Sequence record: OP744025
Reading direction: 5' to 3' (one strand)
DNA length: 64,000 nucleotides
Source of the DNA: Escherichia phage A5-4
Positions 11,130 to 23,204 of the stretch are shown in pieces (position 1 is the first letter of the stretch; the number at the start of each line of letters is the position of its first letter). The notes under the pieces are model-generated. The model made no database searches. It was given only the letters and a program-made list of their open reading frames with translations, and was not told the DNA's origin. A program made the translations under genes and the position numbers.

Positions 11130-11429
11130 TTAGTGACAATCTCCCCAGCTGTATCCACAAAGGTATTCTCCAGTTATCATCACTGGTGATTTCATCATCT
11201 TAGCTGCTTGTTCGACACAACGAACAACCATCTCTCCTACAGGGCAGTATGTAATAGTGAAGATACCATTTTCATCTGGATCACACTTAAACTTCCCTTC
11301 CTTCACGCAATGACCATCCAAGATCATTTTCTTAGCCAAGCAAGCTTCTACAAATTTCTTCGCGTCAGCTTCATTGTCAAAGGTCCAAGTCTTCTTAAAC
11401 TTGTGTGGCACTTCAAGCTGGTATTCATC
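11130..11429 (-). CDS. DNA polymerase (family A, T7 gp5-like), exon 2
   Basis: Frame of ORF 11130..11480 from GAT at 11429: DEYQLEVPHKF... ending ...GYSWGDCH, matching the family A C-terminus (T7 ...NWAICH); completes motif C when joined to exon 1. Confidence 0.7.
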   Translation of the reverse strand, partial: DEYQLEVPHKFKKTWTFDNEADAKKFVEACLAKKMILDGHCVKEGKFKCDPDENGIFTITYCPVGEMVVRCVEQAAKMMKSPVMITGEYLCGYSWGDCH

Positions 11430-12201
11430 CAAAAGTTTAACGAGGTCGTTACTCTCGCCCACATCATTACATGTTGCCATACGTTTTCACGTATGGATCG
11501 GACTATATCACCATCCTTTTCAGGATGCTCCCCATTTCGACGGCACTTGCTCGCCTACGCCTCTCGGCTAGTCTCTGAACGTTAGGACCATGTGTAGTCA
11601 CAAGAGATGTGTGTCCAGTTTTTACGGATTTTTATGGACCTTACCACGTTGTAAGGATAACCCATATCCCGAATCTGTGCACTTCCATAACCTTGCCCCA
11701 GGAAGTTGCAAATCTCTCTAACCTCTTCTTCGGTAACTATACTTCTGGCGTTATCAACCCCTGTTGCTGAACGACATTTATCAGCAAAGGTTTTCTTGAT
11801 ATTTCCACCACGAGTTGTCCATTGGAGGTTTGAATAGTGGTTATTCCTTTTGTCAGGCCACTTATGATCAACCTCCGGCAAACCTTCAGGGTTTGGTACA
11901 AAACACTCTGCCACCAAAACGTGAACAGCCTTTGTAGTCGTCCTTTTGTTGAGATACAGACTTACAATAAGATACCCACGTCCATTATCAACTGCCGCCA
12001 TTGGTTTCCCTCGACGACCTATAATGGTCCCGTCTTCATAAACCTTGTAACCGAAATAATCTTTATATTCCACATGATCCTCTTCGCTGCTGATTAACAT
12101 AGTCTCATACTAACTCACACTTGAATTAATATCAACCTTAGTCTTCCAGCAATTAAAGGAGTTTTCGATGTGAGTTACCTCACAAAGCCACAATGTTACT
12201 T
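11430..12201 (-). mobile_element. group I intron carrying an HNH homing endonuclease gene, inserted in polymerase motif C
   Basis: 772 nt between codons H and D of HDE. 5-prime exon ends in U, intron ends in G. Contains P-like AAUUGCUGGAAGACU (12139-12153), Q-like AAUCAGCAGC (12086-12095), R-like GUUCAGAGACUA (11566-11581) and S-like GAUAUAGUCC (11500-11511). Confidence 0.7.
11582..12100 (-). CDS. HNH homing endonuclease (intron-encoded)
   Basis: 172 aa; GYLIVSL...AVHVLVAECF...VDHKWPDKRNNHYSNLQWTTRGGN is an HNH-3 type signature; lies between the two polymerase exons. Confidence 0.75.
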   Translation of the reverse strand: MLISSEEDHVEYKDYFGYKVYEDGTIIGRRGKPMAAVDNGRGYLIVSLYLNKRTTTKAVHVLVAECFVPNPEGLPEVDHKWPDKRNNHYSNLQWTTRGGNIKKTFADKCRSATGVDNARSIVTEEEVREICNFLGQGYGSAQIRDMGYPYNVVRSIKIRKNWTHISCDYTWS

Positions 12202-14085
12202 ATGGTAATAGATAATACGTCTAACGCCTTCATCATACCAACCTTTCTTGACCAACTGCCAGTGCAGGAGGATACCCACCAAGTCAAACAGTGCAGCACC
12301 ACCATTCTGCTGATAAGCATTAAGCAATGAGTGTTTGGAACGAGTGTAGATCTTACGCCCATCCAGACCATAGATGAATCGCTTACCGTTAGCTTCCCAA
12401 AACTTCTCTAATGCTTCTTTACGACCTTTCAAGCCGATGTTGCTATCCCAGAATGCGTCGATTACTGCTTGGGCTTTCTCAAGACTGATACCAAGCATTG
12501 ATGCAATCTTCGCTGCCTGTGCCCCGTACATGATTCCGTATGTCACCCCTTTACCTTCGCCACGAGAAACCTTCTTCCCTGCTGCTTTGGTATATGCTTC
12601 TGCGTTTCGGGAGTGAGCATCTCCAGATTCCATGATACGAAGATAAGCACCGCCATCGAAATCATAAGCGCCCCATGCTGCGATCATGCCTTCCAAGTTT
12701 GAACCGTCGATACCTACCTGATATTTACCCTCAGAGGCTCTGAATAGTTCACGCATCTCTTTACCGAGAAGAACTTTCTCATCCGGCTTAGGTACGTTTG
12801 CTACGATCGTATGCTTACGACGACCTGTGTTAGTTATTCCACTATAACGGGCCGGAAGTTTACCGTCAACTCGTAGACGTGGATGGTTAAGCCATCCGGT
12901 ATCAACCTTCTCTTCTTTCAGCGGGTCAAGAACAGATCGTCGGTTACGTAAAGACAGCCATTTAACAATCTGTTTAGCCATTTCACCATCTACTCGCTCA
13001 AGGTTAGGGCAAAGACCTTGCTGATCCTTAAGTTGCGGGGATGTTGGCAATGCACGAGCTTTCTTACGGAAAAACTTGAACATCTTTTCTTTATCTGACC
13101 ACTGCTTAGGTGTGATCGCCAAGCTTTTCAGAATCAGATCACGATACTCCGTCTGATCCAAATCTTCAATGTATTGACGAACAATCAGATCAACCTCACT
13201 ATCAGGACGCTGTTTCTTGAACTGATCTTTAGTTGCATCCTTTGTACGCCAAATTGTTGGGACCCACCCTGCATCACGGATCAGGAACTTCTTAACGTCG
13301 TCCTGGTTACCAATACGCATCGGAATCATAATGTCCGGCATCTTTTGTTCTTTGATATCCATCAAAGCACGAGCCATATCTTCCGGCGGCAAAGGAACAA
13401 GTCCTTGCTGCTTAACGTTTTGTGCACGGATAAAATCACCCATTTTGGATTCATCCTCTACACCGTGCTCAACACAATACTTGATCGCGGCGGCAGTAAG
13501 AGATCCGTCAGCCTTAAACGGCTTACTTGGTGCACCTTTAAACTCCAAGGCTTCCCAATTGATATTATAACCTAACTTCTCTAACCATTTCCAACCTGTA
13601 CCGGAAAGAGATCCATCACCCTTGAAAGGTTTAGATGGGAATGTCGGTTGTGCTGATTTCGACATCTCTTTCTTCGGCAACTTAGGTTCAACCTCTAACT
13701 CAATGTCTGTCATCATCTTATCGATACGATCACGAAGCTTGAGTGCTTTTTCTTCATCAAATGAAACACCCTGAATTTCTTGCTCAATCATCAGGTAGTC
13801 AGTCAACATACCTCGACGCAGGGCATTCTTCCAGTTGATCATTTTATACTTCTTCTGATCTTTGTCTGTTTCATCCTTATACATGAAGCGTTTATCATCC
13901 GGCATAGATTCACAAGAGATCTCTTTCATCAGAGCATCCCATACCATTTCGTTGATAATTACGTCTTCAATAATACGATCGCAATACTTCCAAAGTGGAA
14001 GGCCACGCCAATCTTCGATCGCCACTTTCTGGTTAGCTACTCGCATACCCCAAGCTTCAAGCCCGTGTGGCCCTACAGGCTTCAT
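12202..14085 (-). CDS. DNA polymerase (family A, T7 gp5-like), polymerase part, exon 1
   Basis: HGLEAWGMRV matches T7 HALEAWGYRLG; Exo III-like YCDRIIEDV; motif B region SRGEGKGVTYGIMYGAQAAKI; reading frame ends ...RRIIYYH at the intron junction (track ORF 12196..14085). Confidence 0.8.
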
Positions 14086-14531
14086 TTTACCGTGACGGGG
14101 TTCTTTACCATCTCAGGACAACCGCGAGGCAGAGGGCGATCTGGATACAGTGTACGGGACATTGAAAGTGTATCGAAGATGTTTACTTGTTTACCATTAA
14201 TCGTACCCATGCAACCAGGGTCTGCAAACATATCGTAAGTTGTTCCAAGCATCTTCTTAAACAACTGGAGGTCGTAGCCGAAGATGTTGTGGATAGCAAT
14301 TGCTTTAGGCTCTGTGACAAACCACTCGTTTAATTCCTCAATGGTCCGAATCTTAAAGTTTTTACCTTTAGATTGGATAAATTTAACAGCTTGATCGTAA
14401 CCTTCCCGCTGGGGATCAAGAAAGATGTTCCAGTTATCTTTTTTATACTCTTTAAACAAGACGCAGTGAATCAGATCAACCTCTGTCAATAGACCATTCG
14501 CTTCCGCATCTCCAATAAATAAGCCTTTCAT
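14082..14531 (-). CDS. DNA polymerase 3-prime-5-prime exonuclease N-terminal part (Exo I/II), separate frame
   Basis: Exo I FIGDAEANGL and Exo II AIHNIFGYD align with T7 gp5 DIEAN / HNGHKYD. Likely start ATG 14531 with GAAGGAG RBS. Stop overlaps the next ORF start (ATGA at 14082-14085). Confidence 0.7.
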   Translation of the reverse strand: MKGLFIGDAEANGLLTEVDLIHCVLFKEYKKDNWNIFLDPQREGYDQAVKFIQSKGKNFKIRTIEELNEWFVTEPKAIAIHNIFGYDLQLFKKMLGTTYDMFADPGCMGTINGKQVNIFDTLSMSRTLYPDRPLPRGCPEMVKNPVTVK

Positions 14532-14696
14532 TTTTTCTCCTTCTTCAAGCTCCAACTAGACTAAAACAAAGCCCAGCCGGAGGTATGACCCTTCGGCTAG
14601 GTTATCAAAAGTGTCGGTATCCTTCATCAATAAAATAAAGCATCACTAACAGGGCGAATACCCCACATAAGAAGATCAAGCCCAATAAGGTGGGCA

Positions 14697-14972
14697 TCAG
14701 TCTTCTATTACCTCAAATTCACCACTAAAAGCTACGATAGTTTCACCGTAGCCCATGTTCAATCGGGCAGTTGTAGGTTTGCCATTCCTAGATAGATAGT
14801 ACACCCTCGCTTCGTAAATGTCACCAACTTTTACACCGTAAGCCTGTAGGTCTTTGTTATTGATATCTTTATTTTCAGCATTGATTATTCGAACACTGCT
14901 GATCTCTGAGTATACAGAATTATCTTTCATCAGTATTTTTCCTCTGGACGGAAAACTCCACGGCAAGCCCAC
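14697..14972 (-). CDS. hypothetical protein
   Basis: 91 aa ORF in block. Confidence 0.45.
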   Translation of the reverse strand: MGLPWSFPSRGKILMKDNSVYSEISSVRIINAENKDINNKDLQAYGVKVGDIYEARVYYLSRNGKPTTARLNMGYGETIVAFSGEFEVIED

Positions 14973-15214
14973 ATACTTGCTTCTTTGAGGCGATCTTTAG
15001 CCTTAGATAAGCAATCAGATGCAAAAAGCACGGAATCTAGATCCCCTTCGGGAATCGAAGAGTCATTAGCCAGTCGATTATATTCCTCAATAATCTCGTC
15101 TTCTAATGCTTTTAAAATAAGACCTAAACGAATTTCAGCATCTTTAATGGCATTCACCTTACCGATTTTTTCATCGGTGTGTGGTTTGTAGCCCTTAATG
15201 TCATCAATAGCCAT
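14930..15214 (-). CDS. hypothetical protein
   Basis: 94 aa ORF; start may be internal. Confidence 0.45.
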   Translation of the reverse strand: MAIDDIKGYKPHTDEKIGKVNAIKDAEIRLGLILKALEDEIIEEYNRLANDSSIPEGDLDSVLFASDCLSKAKDRLKEASMWACRGVFRPEEKY

Positions 15215-15696
15215 TACCAGTCCTCCTCTGTTTGTTCATACTCTGAAGGGGTGATGAAGTAATTCTGACCCCGCTTGCACTGGTTGAAAGTCCCAACATA
15301 CCAAGTACCGATATCCATGTTGATGAAAGTTTCTTCTTGAACAAAGATCAGATCAGCAAGATTATTGTCTGATCGTTGAGTCGCTAATAAAATATGCTCA
15401 AAATCTGCTAATGTCAGGTTATAACAGAAGCCGTCTTCGTCTTCCATGATTGCAACAACAGAACTACGCCCTTGGGTAAATTTACGAAACTGTAGACGTA
15501 AATGGCGATGCTCATGATCATTAGTCTTAACCTTTTTTCGATTTTCAAAGTATTCTTCGGAATAGTGTGGATGCTTTAATTTCAGTTTTTCAATTTCCTC
15601 AATAGAAAGAGCGTCCTTATCCCAACCAGTAAACCACTTACCATTATCATTAAATACCGCAGGGTATTTACGCTTACTTAAATCTTTAAACATCAT
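15214..15696 (-). CDS. hypothetical protein
   Basis: Track ORF 15214..15756 trimmed to internal ATG (MMFKDLSKRKYP...) to reduce overlap; start uncertain. Confidence 0.45.
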   Translation of the reverse strand: MMFKDLSKRKYPAVFNDNGKWFTGWDKDALSIEEIEKLKLKHPHYSEEYFENRKKVKTNDHEHRHLRLQFRKFTQGRSSVVAIMEDEDGFCYNLTLADFEHILLATQRSDNNLADLIFVQEETFINMDIGTWYVGTFNQCKRGQNYFITPSEYEQTEEDW

Positions 15697-21516: not shown

Positions 21517-22268
21517 CACCGTTATGTTCGACAGGGTTCGCTACTCCCTGCCCGTTCTCTTACGAACTGCTACATGTCCCCATGCAGACCAGACTATATC
21601 TTCAACCTGTTTCCAGGTGCTATGCACTTCGGACCGCTTGGCCCTACTCTACTCGATTCAAGAGTCTAGCTCTTGTCTTTCGATAGTCGTTGCTCCTTCC
21701 TCTCAACCGCTTTGTAATTTGTCTTACGGTATCTCTGTGTATCCCAAAATGCTCTGCAATTTCTTTTTGTTGAAGCGTGGTATTAATAACCATTTCGTAA
21801 ACCTGCTTCTCAAAATCATCAGCATATCTATTTGGATTTCTTCTACCGTTGGCCCAACCATGATCGACATTTTCTTTCGTGGTTGTCCATTCCAAATTAA
21901 CATCGTTGTTGTTTTGCCTGTCGCTATCTTTATGATTAACAACAGGAAGGTTATGAGGGTTATCAACGTAGTGTTCAGCCACCAATTGGTGAATAAATCT
22001 ACGTGTAACCTTACCATCTTTACTTAACGAAACTCTAAGATACCCTGAACTATTGGTATCCGGTTTGAGTTTTTTAAGCTTCCGGTAAACATCTCCCCTT
22101 CGGGTAATGATGTAATTTTCAAAACCTTTTATTCTTTTCATTTCCCCCCCTTGCAATAAACAAAGAGGTTGAGAGGCTTGGATCAGGATTACGTGTTCTA
22201 CGCTTCCCCTGAGTTCACATAGTATTTAGTCGAGGCATCTCTGCCAAGGCTGGCTAGACTTAATGTTT
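21517..22268 (-). mobile_element. group I intron carrying an HNH homing endonuclease gene, inserted in helicase Walker A codons
   Basis: About 750 nt between ...FIGAG and (K)MGKS...; S-like AAGAUAUAGUCU (21591-21606); R-like CAACGACUAUCG (21681-21695); candidate P/Q in the 5-prime part (CUCAGGGGAAGCG, AAUCCUGAUCC). Boundaries approximate. Confidence 0.6.
21644..22156 (-). CDS. HNH homing endonuclease (intron-encoded)
   Basis: 170 aa; GYLRVSL...FIHQLVAEHYVDNPHNLPVVNHKDSDRQNNNDVNLEWTTTKEN is an HNH signature; probable true start at the internal ATG (MKRIKGF). Confidence 0.75.
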   Translation of the reverse strand: MQGGEMKRIKGFENYIITRRGDVYRKLKKLKPDTNSSGYLRVSLSKDGKVTRRFIHQLVAEHYVDNPHNLPVVNHKDSDRQNNNDVNLEWTTTKENVDHGWANGRRNPNRYADDFEKQVYEMVINTTLQQKEIAEHFGIHRDTVRQITKRLRGRSNDYRKTRARLLNRVE

Positions 22269-23204
22269 ACCAGCACCGATGAAGTAACCTTCACCTGGAC
22301 GACGACCCAAGGTAAGCTTGGTCATGGTGGGCCAAGGGAACTTCTTGCCGAGTTTAGGGATCTCATGTGCCTTTTCGCGGAACTGTGAATAAGTCGAGAA
22401 ACCATCCGGCACATATTCCTTTGGCTTCATTGCAGCCCAAAACAACTGATCAGAAAGTCCTTTGTTATACATGTCGCAAGGGTCCATATCTTCTGGAATG
22501 TCCACGACCTTCATTTGTGGAATTACAGAGTATACCGCTGCAACTGCATCTTTACCTTTCATGATCCCTTTGGCCTTCTCTGCTTCTGTCGCACGGTCAG
22601 CATCGAAAGCTACGATAATCTCTTCAAACTTACTCAGAAGCTTATAGTTATTCTTCTGTGATAAGTTTTGCACGGCATTGGATGTACCGTTAGAGATAGA
22701 TACAACTGTGAAGTTTGGTTTACGAGTGGAACCATCCTTCGGTTTGTACTTCTCTGTCAATACCTGCCACAAGATTGCAGCATCATATTCACCTTCAGTG
22801 ATAAAGATCATACGTTTGGAAGACTTATTTGCACCTTCCAGCCCAAACATATCACAAGCCACAGATTGGAAACCAATAGTTGTAAAGTGACCTTTCTGTT
22901 GCTTAGGGATCGTAAGATCACGCTTCTTAAAACCTACAACCTTACCTTCTAATGTATACGGGAAATAATGTGCTTCTGGTGTCATACCGTCTTTAGCTGA
23001 CAGTTTGGTACGAATACCAAATCGTTTAGCTGTCTTTTCGTCGATACCGCGCTCAGGGATACTTTTGCACGGGTAAGTCAATACGTCTTCAACTGTTTCT
23101 TCTACACGAGACACACCACCACCATAATTACGTGCTACTGAAGCTTTAGGATTTTTATGTCCAAACTTATAACCGCCAAACAAACTTTCGCCAATAGTGC
23201 TCAT
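22269..23204 (-). CDS. primase-helicase (T7 gp4-like), primase (TOPRIM) domain, exon 1
   Basis: KRMIFITEGEYDAAIL, VVSISNGTSNA, IIVAFDADRATEAE, EYVPDGFSTY and TLGRRPGE align with T7 gp4 TEGEIDMLTV, VVSLGHGASAA, ILMFDMDEAGRKA, PWIPDGVVS, TLGARGGE. No N-terminal Cys4 zinc-binding domain. Frame stops 3 codons after the proposed splice site. Confidence 0.75.

What the first reader, a model, noticed from the sequence alone, without database searches (positions are those of the whole stretch)
14082..14115. Polymerase exonuclease active site is split across two overlapping frames (ATGA junction)
Exo I (FIGDAEAN) and Exo II (HNIFGYD) lie in ORF 14082..14531. The HGLEAWG segment and the Exo III-like YCDRIIEDV lie in the next ORF, which starts at an ATG overlapping the first ORF's stop (ATGA at 14082-14085). 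Because one catalytic domain is divided, a single polypeptide would need a -1 shift in 14085-14112 (candidate A-AAA-TGA at 14088-14082), or the assembly is missing a base in a homopolymer (CCCC at 14097-14100, AAAA at 14085-14088). Two separate subunits remain possible.
Basis: partly seen in the sequence, partly recalled or inferred. Interest (0 to 1): 0.6.

Follow-up and report, generated by a model that had tools for sequence, protein, structure and literature searches.

The report
One-base deletion splits phage DNA polymerase
The DNA polymerase gene of E. coli phage A5-4 is cut into two overlapping reading frames by the loss of a single base that every related phage still has, so this is either a tolerated accident (an enzyme made in two pieces) or a sequence error, not an evolved frameshift signal or a second polymerase.

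Summary
On the minus strand, ORF 14531..14082 (Exo I, Exo II) stops at a TGA that overlaps the ATG of ORF 14085..12196 (HGLEAWG, Exo III, polymerase), and ORF2 is in the -1 frame.

The cause is one missing base. All relatives read GTC ACA GGT AAA ATG AAG (V T G K M K). The window reads GTC AC- GGT, between 14092 and 14091, which is not a homopolymer. 800 of 801 phage records encode the junction peptide in one frame.

The window is phage A5-4 (OP744025; Illumina MiSeq, metaSPAdes). Its paper counted the N-fragment as "an additional DNA polymerase".

No other real gene in the 64 kb has a frame break. ORF2's ATG has no Shine-Dalgarno sequence, there is no slippery heptamer or spaced stimulator, and nothing is conserved. 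It is therefore neither a programmed frameshift nor an evolved two-subunit enzyme.

Best reading (about 0.45): a real, recent deletion that the phage tolerates. The ribosome stops two codons later on AUGA and reinitiates at Met150, giving 17 kDa and 83 kDa pieces cut in a peripheral beta-hairpin. This resembles the accidental Pfu split polymerase.

Main rival (about 0.35): a consensus error. Reads or Sanger sequencing would decide.

The parts
14082..14531 (-). N-terminal polymerase fragment ORF (149 aa, 17.1 kDa). It carries Exo I (D8, E10) and Exo II (N82, D87) and ends NPVTVK*. Its start has a strong Shine-Dalgarno sequence.
   Evidence: annotated in GenBank as UZZ64241.1, 157 aa from TTG 14555
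14091..14092 (-). Site of the single-base deletion. Relatives have A (A73, A7_1, UPEC06) or C (CR3) between these two bases, as the third position of the Thr147 codon. The context CAC-GGT is not a homopolymer.
14082..14085 (-). ATGA stop/start overlap. The TGA of ORF1 is created by the frameshift. The ATG is the ancestral internal Met150 codon.
14085..14088 (-). AAAA run, forming A_AAA followed by TGA. It is the only possible -1 slip site and would restore the frame to give ...NPVTVK-MKPVG...
   Evidence: read from the sequence; low expected efficiency (PMC4066793)
12202..14085 (-). Rest of polymerase exon 1 (Met150 to His778). It holds HGLEAWG, Exo III (E189, D190), the thumb/palm/fingers regions and motif C up to YYH. 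The mechanical ORF runs on to a stop inside the intron at 12196.
   Evidence: PF00476, E=2.1e-11
11430..12201 (-). 772-nt group I intron inserted between YYH and DE of motif C. It carries an HNH homing-endonuclease ORF (12100..11582). It is absent from A7_1 and UPEC06 and present in A73.
   Evidence: (RF00028, E=7.6e-9, 42.9 bits, below the gathering score of 50); exon ends in U and the intron ends in G
11130..11429 (-). Polymerase exon 2 (DEYQLEV...GDCH*). It is annotated as a separate 116-aa 'DNA-directed DNA polymerase' ORF, 11480..11130.
14059..14082 (-). Local 8-bp hairpin (AAGCCUGU/ACGGGCUU) starting at the last base of the stop codon. It is too close (2 nt) to act as a classical -1 stimulator and is not significant against shuffles (z = -0.86).
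14124..14182 (-). Interval in which the gene switches from a 1.2-kb block matching A7_1 (56 of 56 informative sites, no private SNPs, 15357..14182) to A73-like sequence. The deletion lies 32-90 nt beyond this interval.

Best explanation
The T7-like family A DNA polymerase gene of Escherichia phage A5-4 carries a lineage-private deletion of one base, the wobble A of Thr147 (ACA). SHOWN: the ancestral state is one ORF; this is the only frame break in a real gene in the window; the site is not a homopolymer; the data are Illumina; the phage is viable; the frameshifted ribosome reads only GUA AAA (G148V, K149 unchanged) before a UGA that overlaps the in-frame AUG of Met150. INFERRED: the deletion is real in the sequenced stock and is tolerated. 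Terminating ribosomes reinitiate on AUGA and produce an N-piece (residues 1-149, 17 kDa, Exo I and Exo II) and a C-piece (150-876 after intron splicing, 83 kDa, Exo III and polymerase). The two pieces reassemble because the cut falls in the turn of a peripheral beta-hairpin that some homologues lack. A small extra amount of full-length G148V enzyme may come from -1 slippage of tRNA-Lys on A_AAA next to the stop. It is an accident, not an evolved signal. Sub-confidences: 'singleton 1-nt deletion, neither programmed nor a second polymerase' about 0.9; 'real rather than a consensus error' about 0.6; 'stop-start is the main rescue route, given that it is real' about 0.75.
For: Relatives read GTCAC[A/C]GGTAAAATGAAG and the window lacks that base. 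The repaired 129-aa junction peptide is 100% identical to A7_1, and 800 of 801 phage records hold it in one piece. Of 133 A73 ORFs of 90 aa or more matched in the window, the polymerase is the only real CDS with a 1-nt frame break. The other unpaired indels are intergenic or lie at the ends of tiny ORFs. The source is phage A5-4, sequenced on MiSeq and assembled with metaSPAdes; it forms plaques and has kill curves like A7-1. Only 4.4% of possible 1-nt deletions are 'seamless' like this one, which fits a mutation that survived selection better than a randomly placed error. An AlphaFold model of an 84%-identical, co-linear homologue (pLDDT 88.7) puts K149|M150 between the turn NPVTGK and strand 150-152 of a hairpin lying between helices 121-128 and 158-164. 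That segment is deleted in the Felixounavirus homologue and variable in SP6. Precedent: Pfu 4C11, where a single dA deletion made AUGA, translation was coupled in E. coli, and the two pieces formed a 1:1 complex with wild-type activity (PMC3061061).
Against: No reads are available, and no second assembly carries the deletion. ORF2's AUG has no Shine-Dalgarno sequence (-3.0 kcal/mol, and 37% of random positions do as well). In E. coli, removing the Shine-Dalgarno sequence cut reinitiation by 60-90% in three of five gene pairs and abolished it in one (PMC6728339), so the C-piece yield could be low. The cut lies inside one compact DEDD fold, between Exo II and Exo III. No natural homologue is split there: none of 116 hits ends at the junction. 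Assembly of the two pieces is untested. metaSPAdes has no consensus-polishing step, so an error cannot be ruled out.
Confidence: 0.45

Rival explanations
1. Consensus or assembly error. The real A5-4 genome has the A and encodes an ordinary single-chain polymerase, and the split exists only in the database record.
For: This is a singleton among 801 records. The repaired protein is 100% identical to A7_1 around the site. There is no sign of adaptation, such as a Shine-Dalgarno sequence for ORF2. DNA polymerase is essential, and the phage grows like its intact relative. The assembly was made with default metaSPAdes, and the paper mentions no check of this gene. The deletion lies 32-90 nt from a switch between A7_1-like and A73-like sequence, which could reflect a mixed library.
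Against: Illumina consensus indels outside homopolymers are rare, and de Bruijn assemblers do not invent k-mers, so some reads must carry the deletion (established knowledge of the method). No other real CDS in 64 kb is frame-broken. A randomly placed error had only about a 4% chance of landing in a seamless stop-start configuration. A5-4 has private SNPs on the A73-like side, so it is not a simple chimera.
Confidence: 0.35
2. The deletion is real and is rescued mainly by -1 ribosomal slippage. tRNA-Lys in the P site slips from AAA (14087-14085) to AAA (14088-14086) while UGA waits in the A site, giving full-length G148V polymerase. This is compensatory frameshifting of a 'problem indel'.
For: There is perfect re-pairing on A_AAA, with a slow-to-decode stop codon adjacent. 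The resulting product differs from the ancestral protein at only one residue. Compensatory low-level frameshifting is documented elsewhere (PMC5009743).
Against: Z_ZZN tetramers without a stimulator gave 0.147% against a 0.112% background in E. coli, and A_AA.A was the weakest responsive motif even with a pseudoknot (PMC4066793). There is no heptamer. The hairpin starts 2 nt after the site and is not significant. No upstream Shine-Dalgarno-like stimulator is present.
Confidence: 0.08
3. The deletion is real and only the C-piece matters. Translation from Met150 gives a polymerase without a working proofreading domain, so the phage replicates as an exonuclease-deficient mutator.
For: All polymerase-domain motifs lie in ORF2 plus exon 2. 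A5-4 shows many private SNPs in the flanking regions, although this is not specific evidence.
Against: The C-piece would keep about 40 residues of a broken exonuclease fold. In the model these pack against the missing sheet, so misfolding is likely. ORF2 has no independent initiation signal, so it is made only where the N-piece has just been made.
Confidence: 0.07
4. An evolved feature: either a programmed frameshift or a deliberate two-subunit polymerase, or a second, additional polymerase gene as the genome paper implied.
For: The ATGA overlap resembles operon-style coupling. The paper lists 'an additional DNA polymerase ... only in A5-4'.
Against: It is not conserved in any of five relatives at 95-99% identity or in 800 of 801 homologues. 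The sequence is co-linear with a single gene, with a 1-nt gap as the only difference. There is no Shine-Dalgarno sequence and no stimulator. The 157-aa protein is simply residues 1-149 of the same enzyme.
Confidence: 0.03

Closest known systems
Pfu 4C11 / 'Pfu SQ' split family B DNA polymerase (Hansen et al., NAR 2011; PMC3061061)
   Same: A single A deletion just upstream of an internal Met codon creates a TGA that overlaps the ATG (AUGA). In E. coli the two pieces are made by termination-reinitiation with essentially no change in sequence, and the polymerase stays active as a 1:1 complex.
   Different: It is family B, it is cut in the fingers domain, and it arose in a laboratory selection with biochemical proof. 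Here the enzyme is family A, the cut is inside the 3'-5' exonuclease fold, it occurs in a natural phage isolate, and there are no protein data.
Naturally bicistronic DNA polymerases (gp43A/B of T4-related phages, split PolB of Methanothermobacter, RM378), as summarised in PMC3061061
   Same: A replicative polymerase made from two polypeptides that assemble, with the splits falling in variable surface elements.
   Different: Those splits are conserved within lineages, are usually caused by inserted DNA, and each part has its own start signals. This one is a 1-nt deletion in a single genome, with no Shine-Dalgarno sequence.
Stand-alone ~177-200-aa exonuclease-domain homologues (e.g. P0141, P0150, P0147)
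   Same: They are homologous to the N-terminus of this polymerase and show that proofreading can sit on a separate polypeptide.
   Different: They contain the whole DEDD fold, including the junction hairpin, HGLEAWG and Exo III, in one chain. None ends at the A5-4 break.
Programmed -1 frameshift sites of bacteria and phages (dnaX A_AAA_AAG; IS3/IS911; Z_ZZN tetramers)
   Same: The direction of shift is the same, and an A-run decoded by tRNA-Lys is involved.
   Different: There is no X_XXY_YYZ heptamer, no stimulator at 5-9 nt, no upstream Shine-Dalgarno sequence and no conservation.
Bacteriophage T7 gene 5 DNA polymerase
   Same: This is the best sequence match (E=5e-16) and the best fold match (E=1e-11). 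Exo I, Exo II, HxLEAWG, Exo III and motif C are co-linear.
   Different: Identity is about 15%, there are extra insertions (876 aa against 704 aa), and the junction hairpin is longer than in T7 (gaps in the alignment). The position of T7's Exo III Tyr appears to be Arg186 here; this rests on a manual alignment and was not tested.

Membership tests
Programmed -1 ribosomal frameshift site | Slippery heptamer X_XXY_YYZ, or an efficient tetramer such as A_AAG | tested here: not met
   The sequence is G_GUA_AAA_UGA. Only A_AAA is present, and it is the weakest responsive tetramer in E. coli (PMC4066793).
Programmed -1 ribosomal frameshift site | Stimulatory structure 5-9 nt downstream, or a Shine-Dalgarno-like element upstream | tested here: not met
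   The hairpin starts 2 nt after the site, with z = -0.86 against shuffles. The best anti-Shine-Dalgarno pairing upstream is -3.0 kcal/mol, which is background.
Programmed -1 ribosomal frameshift site | The two-frame arrangement is conserved among relatives | tested here: not met
   800 of 801 records have a single frame, including all five relatives at 95-99% identity.
Evolved split (two-gene) DNA polymerase | The split is shared by a lineage | tested here: not met
   It is a singleton. None of 116 representative homologues ends at the junction.
Evolved split (two-gene) DNA polymerase | The downstream cistron has its own translation-initiation region | tested here: not met
   -3.0 kcal/mol, against -8.8 kcal/mol at the true gene start.
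Evolved split (two-gene) DNA polymerase | The cut falls in a variable surface element and no catalytic residue is lost | tested here: met
   The hairpin turn is at residues 144-149 in the model. The segment is absent in the Felixounavirus homologue. Only G148V changes.
Evolved split (two-gene) DNA polymerase | The pieces associate and are active | not testable with these tools
   This needs co-purification and activity assays.
Sequencing/assembly indel artefact | Homopolymer or low-complexity context, or an indel-prone platform | tested here: not met
   The context is CAC[A]GGT. The data are Illumina MiSeq.
Sequencing/assembly indel artefact | Other frame-breaking indels in the same assembly | tested here: not met
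   There are no other real CDSs with a frame break among 133 matched ORFs.
Sequencing/assembly indel artefact | The base is present in the raw reads | not testable with these tools
   No reads or independent assembly are on record.
T7-like family A DNA polymerase with DEDD 3'-5' exonuclease | Pol A domain and T7 gp5-like fold | tested here: met
   PF00476, E=2.1e-11. T7 gp5 by sequence, E=5e-16. Foldseek top 27 hits are T7 gp5.
T7-like family A DNA polymerase with DEDD 3'-5' exonuclease | Exo I DxE, Exo II D and Exo III D carboxylates | tested here: met
   D8, E10, D87 and D190 are invariant or at least 90% conserved.
T7-like family A DNA polymerase with DEDD 3'-5' exonuclease | Exo III Tyr (Y-x3-D) | tested here: inconclusive
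   A manual alignment of DRIIEDV with T7 DYNVQDV puts the invariant R186 at the Tyr position. The phmmer alignment of that stretch has low confidence.
Group I intron with HNH homing endonuclease (the second interruption of the same gene) | Group I core, a precise insertion relative to an intron-less allele, U at the exon end and G at the intron end, and an HNH ORF | tested here: met
   RF00028 full-length match, E=7.6e-9 but 42.9 bits, below the gathering score of 50. There is a 772-nt insertion relative to A7_1. The boundaries read CAU|...G|GAU. HNH_3 scores 23.9 bits against a cut-off of 24.8. Splicing was not tested here; homologous Certrevirus polymerase introns splice (PMC7344957).

The most novel reading that the evidence does not exclude
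A viable lytic coliphage replicates with a family A DNA polymerase whose proofreading domain is physically cut between Exo II and Exo III by a spontaneous 1-nt deletion. The enzyme is made as two polypeptides by Shine-Dalgarno-less AUGA termination-reinitiation. This would be a natural counterpart of the engineered Pfu split, might alter fidelity, and would be a snapshot of how split polymerases originate.
Probability: 0.4. Interest if true: 0.45.

Novelty: new member of a known kind. Interest (0 to 1): 0.25.

Why it matters
There are three practical consequences. First, A5-4 is the exemplar of the species Septuagintavirus sv54 and is in RefSeq (NC_130866.1), so three 'DNA polymerase' CDSs from one gene are spreading through databases. 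Second, the genome paper's statement that A5-4 has 'an additional DNA polymerase', suggesting a different replication strategy, is not supported. All of those CDSs derive from one gene, interrupted once by a 1-nt deletion and once by a group I intron. Third, if the deletion is real, this is a cheap natural test of whether a DEDD proofreading domain can work when cut in a hairpin, and of how well E. coli ribosomes reinitiate on AUGA without a Shine-Dalgarno sequence. If it is an error, the record needs a one-base correction.

Tried and rejected
The gap aligns unambiguously to CAC[A]GG.
- Intron, intein or inserted element at the junction: rejected. The alignment is co-linear with only a 1-nt gap.
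- Programmed frameshift: rejected.
- Transcriptional slippage on A4: considered and dismissed because the run is too short (established knowledge, not tested here).
- Exact searches for the junction, with or without the base, in IMG/VR, JGI metagenomes and GTDB genomes found nothing.
- Exact-protein look-ups of the 149-aa and 629-aa products found no contig. Cluster look-up shows only the GenBank record, so there is no independent assembly to compare.
- The first two word-indexed protein searches returned very few relatives.
- The first AlphaFold run, with a 5-sequence alignment, failed (pLDDT 47) and was discarded. The second, with 41 sequences, was usable.
- Sequence-only alignment of the isolated exonuclease domain to T7 is weak (E=0.22), so mapping relies on the full-length hit and the fold search.
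- The nearby mosaic switch was considered as a cause of the deletion. However, small switches are dense in this gene, so the proximity is not significant and no mechanism links it to a 1-nt loss.
- The single phage record (1 of 801) lacking 80% coverage of the junction peptide was not examined.
Full report
**What is in the sequence.** The gene lies on the minus strand.
- ORF1 starts at ATG 14531, behind a strong Shine-Dalgarno sequence (GAAGGAG, -8.8 kcal/mol). It ends ...RGCPEMVKNPVTVK at TGA 14084-14082.
- ORF2 starts at ATG 14085-14083 (MKPVGPHGLEAWG...) and runs to 12196.
- ORF2 is in the -1 frame, which is open upstream only to 14113.

**What caused it.**
- The window is a rV5-like (Vequintavirinae) coliphage. 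Its closest records are A73, W70, LTH01, A7_1 and UPEC06 at 95-99% identity.
- In all of them, and in Cronobacter phage CR3, the polymerase crosses this point as one ORF.
- They read GTC ACA GGT AAA ATG AAG (V T G K M K). The window reads GTC AC- GGT AAA ATG A.
- One base is missing between 14092 and 14091: the wobble base of Thr147. This is not in the CCCC or AAAA runs.
- ORF2's ATG is simply the ancestral Met150 codon. The TGA is the +1-frame reading of ATG A.
- A 129-aa peptide spanning the repaired junction is 100% identical to A7_1. It is found in one piece in 800 of 801 phage records, from Vequintavirinae to ICP1, Felixounavirus and SP6.
- A full HMMER scan of 1.84 billion representative proteins found 116 homologues of ORF1, and none ends at this junction.

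**Where the window comes from.**
- Exact protein look-ups identify it as Escherichia phage A5-4 (OP744025, 145,365 bp, Septuagintavirus sv54). The three pieces are annotated as separate 'DNA polymerase' CDSs.
- The describing paper (PMC11370258) used Nextera XT, Illumina MiSeq, default metaSPAdes and RAST.
- It reports clear plaques and kill curves similar to A7-1.
[quoted passage not shown] That extra polymerase is the N-terminal 149 residues of the single polymerase gene.
- A5-4 is also a RefSeq/ICTV exemplar.

**Real mutation or error?** No reads are available. The indirect evidence leans modestly towards a real mutation.
- The platform and the non-repetitive context are not indel-prone.
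- Across the 64 kb, every other unpaired 1-nt difference from A73 is intergenic or at the very end of a tiny ORF.
- Of 133 A73 ORFs of 90 aa or more with a match in the window, the polymerase is the only real gene with a 1-nt frame break. This fits a clean assembly shaped by purifying selection.
- Only 83 of 1901 possible 1-nt deletion alleles (4.4%) would place a stop on an in-frame ATG with 3 or fewer codons changed. A random error had a small chance of landing there, whereas a mutation that survived in a viable phage would be expected to be of this kind.
- Against a real mutation: it is a singleton in an essential gene, and nothing around it has adapted.
- I put real against error at roughly 60:40.

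**How it would work if real.**
- After the deletion the ribosome reads GUA AAA (G148V, K149 unchanged) and meets UGA overlapping AUG.
- Termination-reinitiation on AUGA is well documented in E. coli (PMC6728339).
- It has an almost exact precedent. In Pfu clone 4C11, a single dA deletion produced AUGA before an internal Met. The two pieces were made by coupled translation in E. coli and formed a 1:1 complex with wild-type activity (PMC3061061).
- Here the products would be 17.1 kDa (Exo I, Exo II) and 83.2 kDa (Exo III and polymerase, after splicing).
- An AlphaFold model of an 84%-identical, co-linear homologue has a mean pLDDT of 88.7 and best fold matches to T7 gp5. It places K149|M150 at the turn-to-strand boundary of a small beta-hairpin (strands 141-143 and 150-152) in the long connection between helices 121-128 and 158-164.
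- This hairpin is deleted in the Felixounavirus homologue and variable in SP6. Met150 itself is Ala in close homologues.
- The cut is therefore in a peripheral, dispensable element, although it still lies inside one DEDD fold.
- Weak points: there is no Shine-Dalgarno sequence before ORF2 (-3.0 kcal/mol, at background level), and loss of the Shine-Dalgarno sequence usually costs 60-90% of reinitiation in E. coli.

**The -1 slip.**
- tRNA-Lys could re-pair from AAA to the overlapping AAA next to the stop, giving full-length G148V enzyme.
- Bare Z_ZZN tetramers shift at about 0.15% against 0.11% background, and A_AA.A is the weakest motif even with a pseudoknot (PMC4066793).
- The only local hairpin begins 2 nt after the site and is not better than shuffled sequence.
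- This route can be at most a minor contributor, comparable to compensatory frameshifting of problem indels (PMC5009743).

**What it is not.**
- It is not a programmed frameshift: there is no heptamer, stimulator or conservation.
- It is not an evolved two-subunit polymerase: it is a singleton with no initiation region.
- It is not a second polymerase.
- Natural relatives with a separate exonuclease protein do exist (177-200 aa, for example P0141 and P0150), but they carry the entire fold, including this hairpin and Exo III.

**The rest of the gene.**
- ORF2 does not end at the true C-terminus. It stops at ...IIYYHK* because a 772-nt group I intron (12201..11430) sits between YYH and DE of motif C.
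- The Rfam RF00028 match has E=7.6e-9 and covers the full model, but scores below the gathering threshold.
- The intron carries an HNH ORF at 12100..11582.
- It is absent from A7_1 and UPEC06 and present in A73.
- Repairing the base and removing the intron gives an 876-aa protein co-linear with A7_1's.
- Homologous polymerase introns in Certrevirus CB7 were shown to splice (PMC7344957).

**Verdict.** This is an ordinary kind of event, a private frameshift mutation or a record error, in an unusually forgiving position. Interest is low to moderate. Its main value is correcting the annotation and the published inference, and offering a simple experiment.

Noticed in passing
window 11430-12201 (-): A 772-nt group I intron with an HNH homing-endonuclease ORF (12100..11582) interrupts polymerase motif C between YYH and DE. 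It is present in A73 and absent in A7_1 and UPEC06. It explains why ORF2 ends in ...YYHK* and why a third 'DNA polymerase' CDS (11480..11130) is annotated.
   Followed up: yes
window 21520-22269 (-): The primase/helicase gene is also interrupted relative to A73. A ~750-nt insertion cuts the P-loop (…IGAGKH* / …MGKSELL). It carries an HNH+HTH ORF (22156..21644) and gives a weak group I intron hit (E=8.8e-4, 21760..21570). It is probably a second intron with a homing endonuclease.
   Followed up: partly
window 14124-15357 (-): Mosaic structure. A 1.2-kb block (15357..14182) matches A7_1 at 56 of 56 informative sites and has no private SNPs. From 14124 onward the gene is A73-like with private SNPs. 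The switch lies 32-90 nt from the deletion. This could be recent recombination among phages from the same farm. A link to the deletion is unproven.
   Followed up: partly
literature: PMC11370258; RefSeq NC_130866.1: The genome paper counts the 157-aa N-fragment as 'an additional DNA polymerase ... only in A5-4' and infers different replication strategies. A5-4 is the RefSeq/ICTV exemplar of Septuagintavirus sv54, so the broken annotation is being propagated.
   Followed up: yes
window ~13975-13995 (-), residues 183-190 (CDRIIEDV): The position of the Exo III tyrosine of T7 gp5 (DYNVQDV) seems to be an invariant arginine (R186) in this polymerase family and in SP6. This suggests a non-canonical Exo III motif. 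It rests on a manual alignment only.
   Followed up: no
proteins P0141, P0150, P0147 (metagenomic): Many ~177-200-aa stand-alone proteins are homologous to the whole exonuclease domain of this polymerase and end just after Exo III. These lineages appear to have the proofreading domain as a separate gene. Their genomic context was not examined.
   Followed up: partly
window 24074, 50581, 51121, 53754: There are single-base homopolymer length differences from A73 (C5 vs C4, A6 vs A5, and similar). They fall within the last few codons of very small hypothetical ORFs or just upstream of starts. They may alter the C-termini of those ORFs or their ribosome-binding sites.
   Followed up: no
window 14531-14555 (-): GenBank starts the N-fragment, and A7_1's polymerase, at a TTG 24 nt upstream (LELEEGEK...). 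The ATG at 14531 is 6 nt after a strong GAAGGAG Shine-Dalgarno sequence and is the more likely start.
   Followed up: partly
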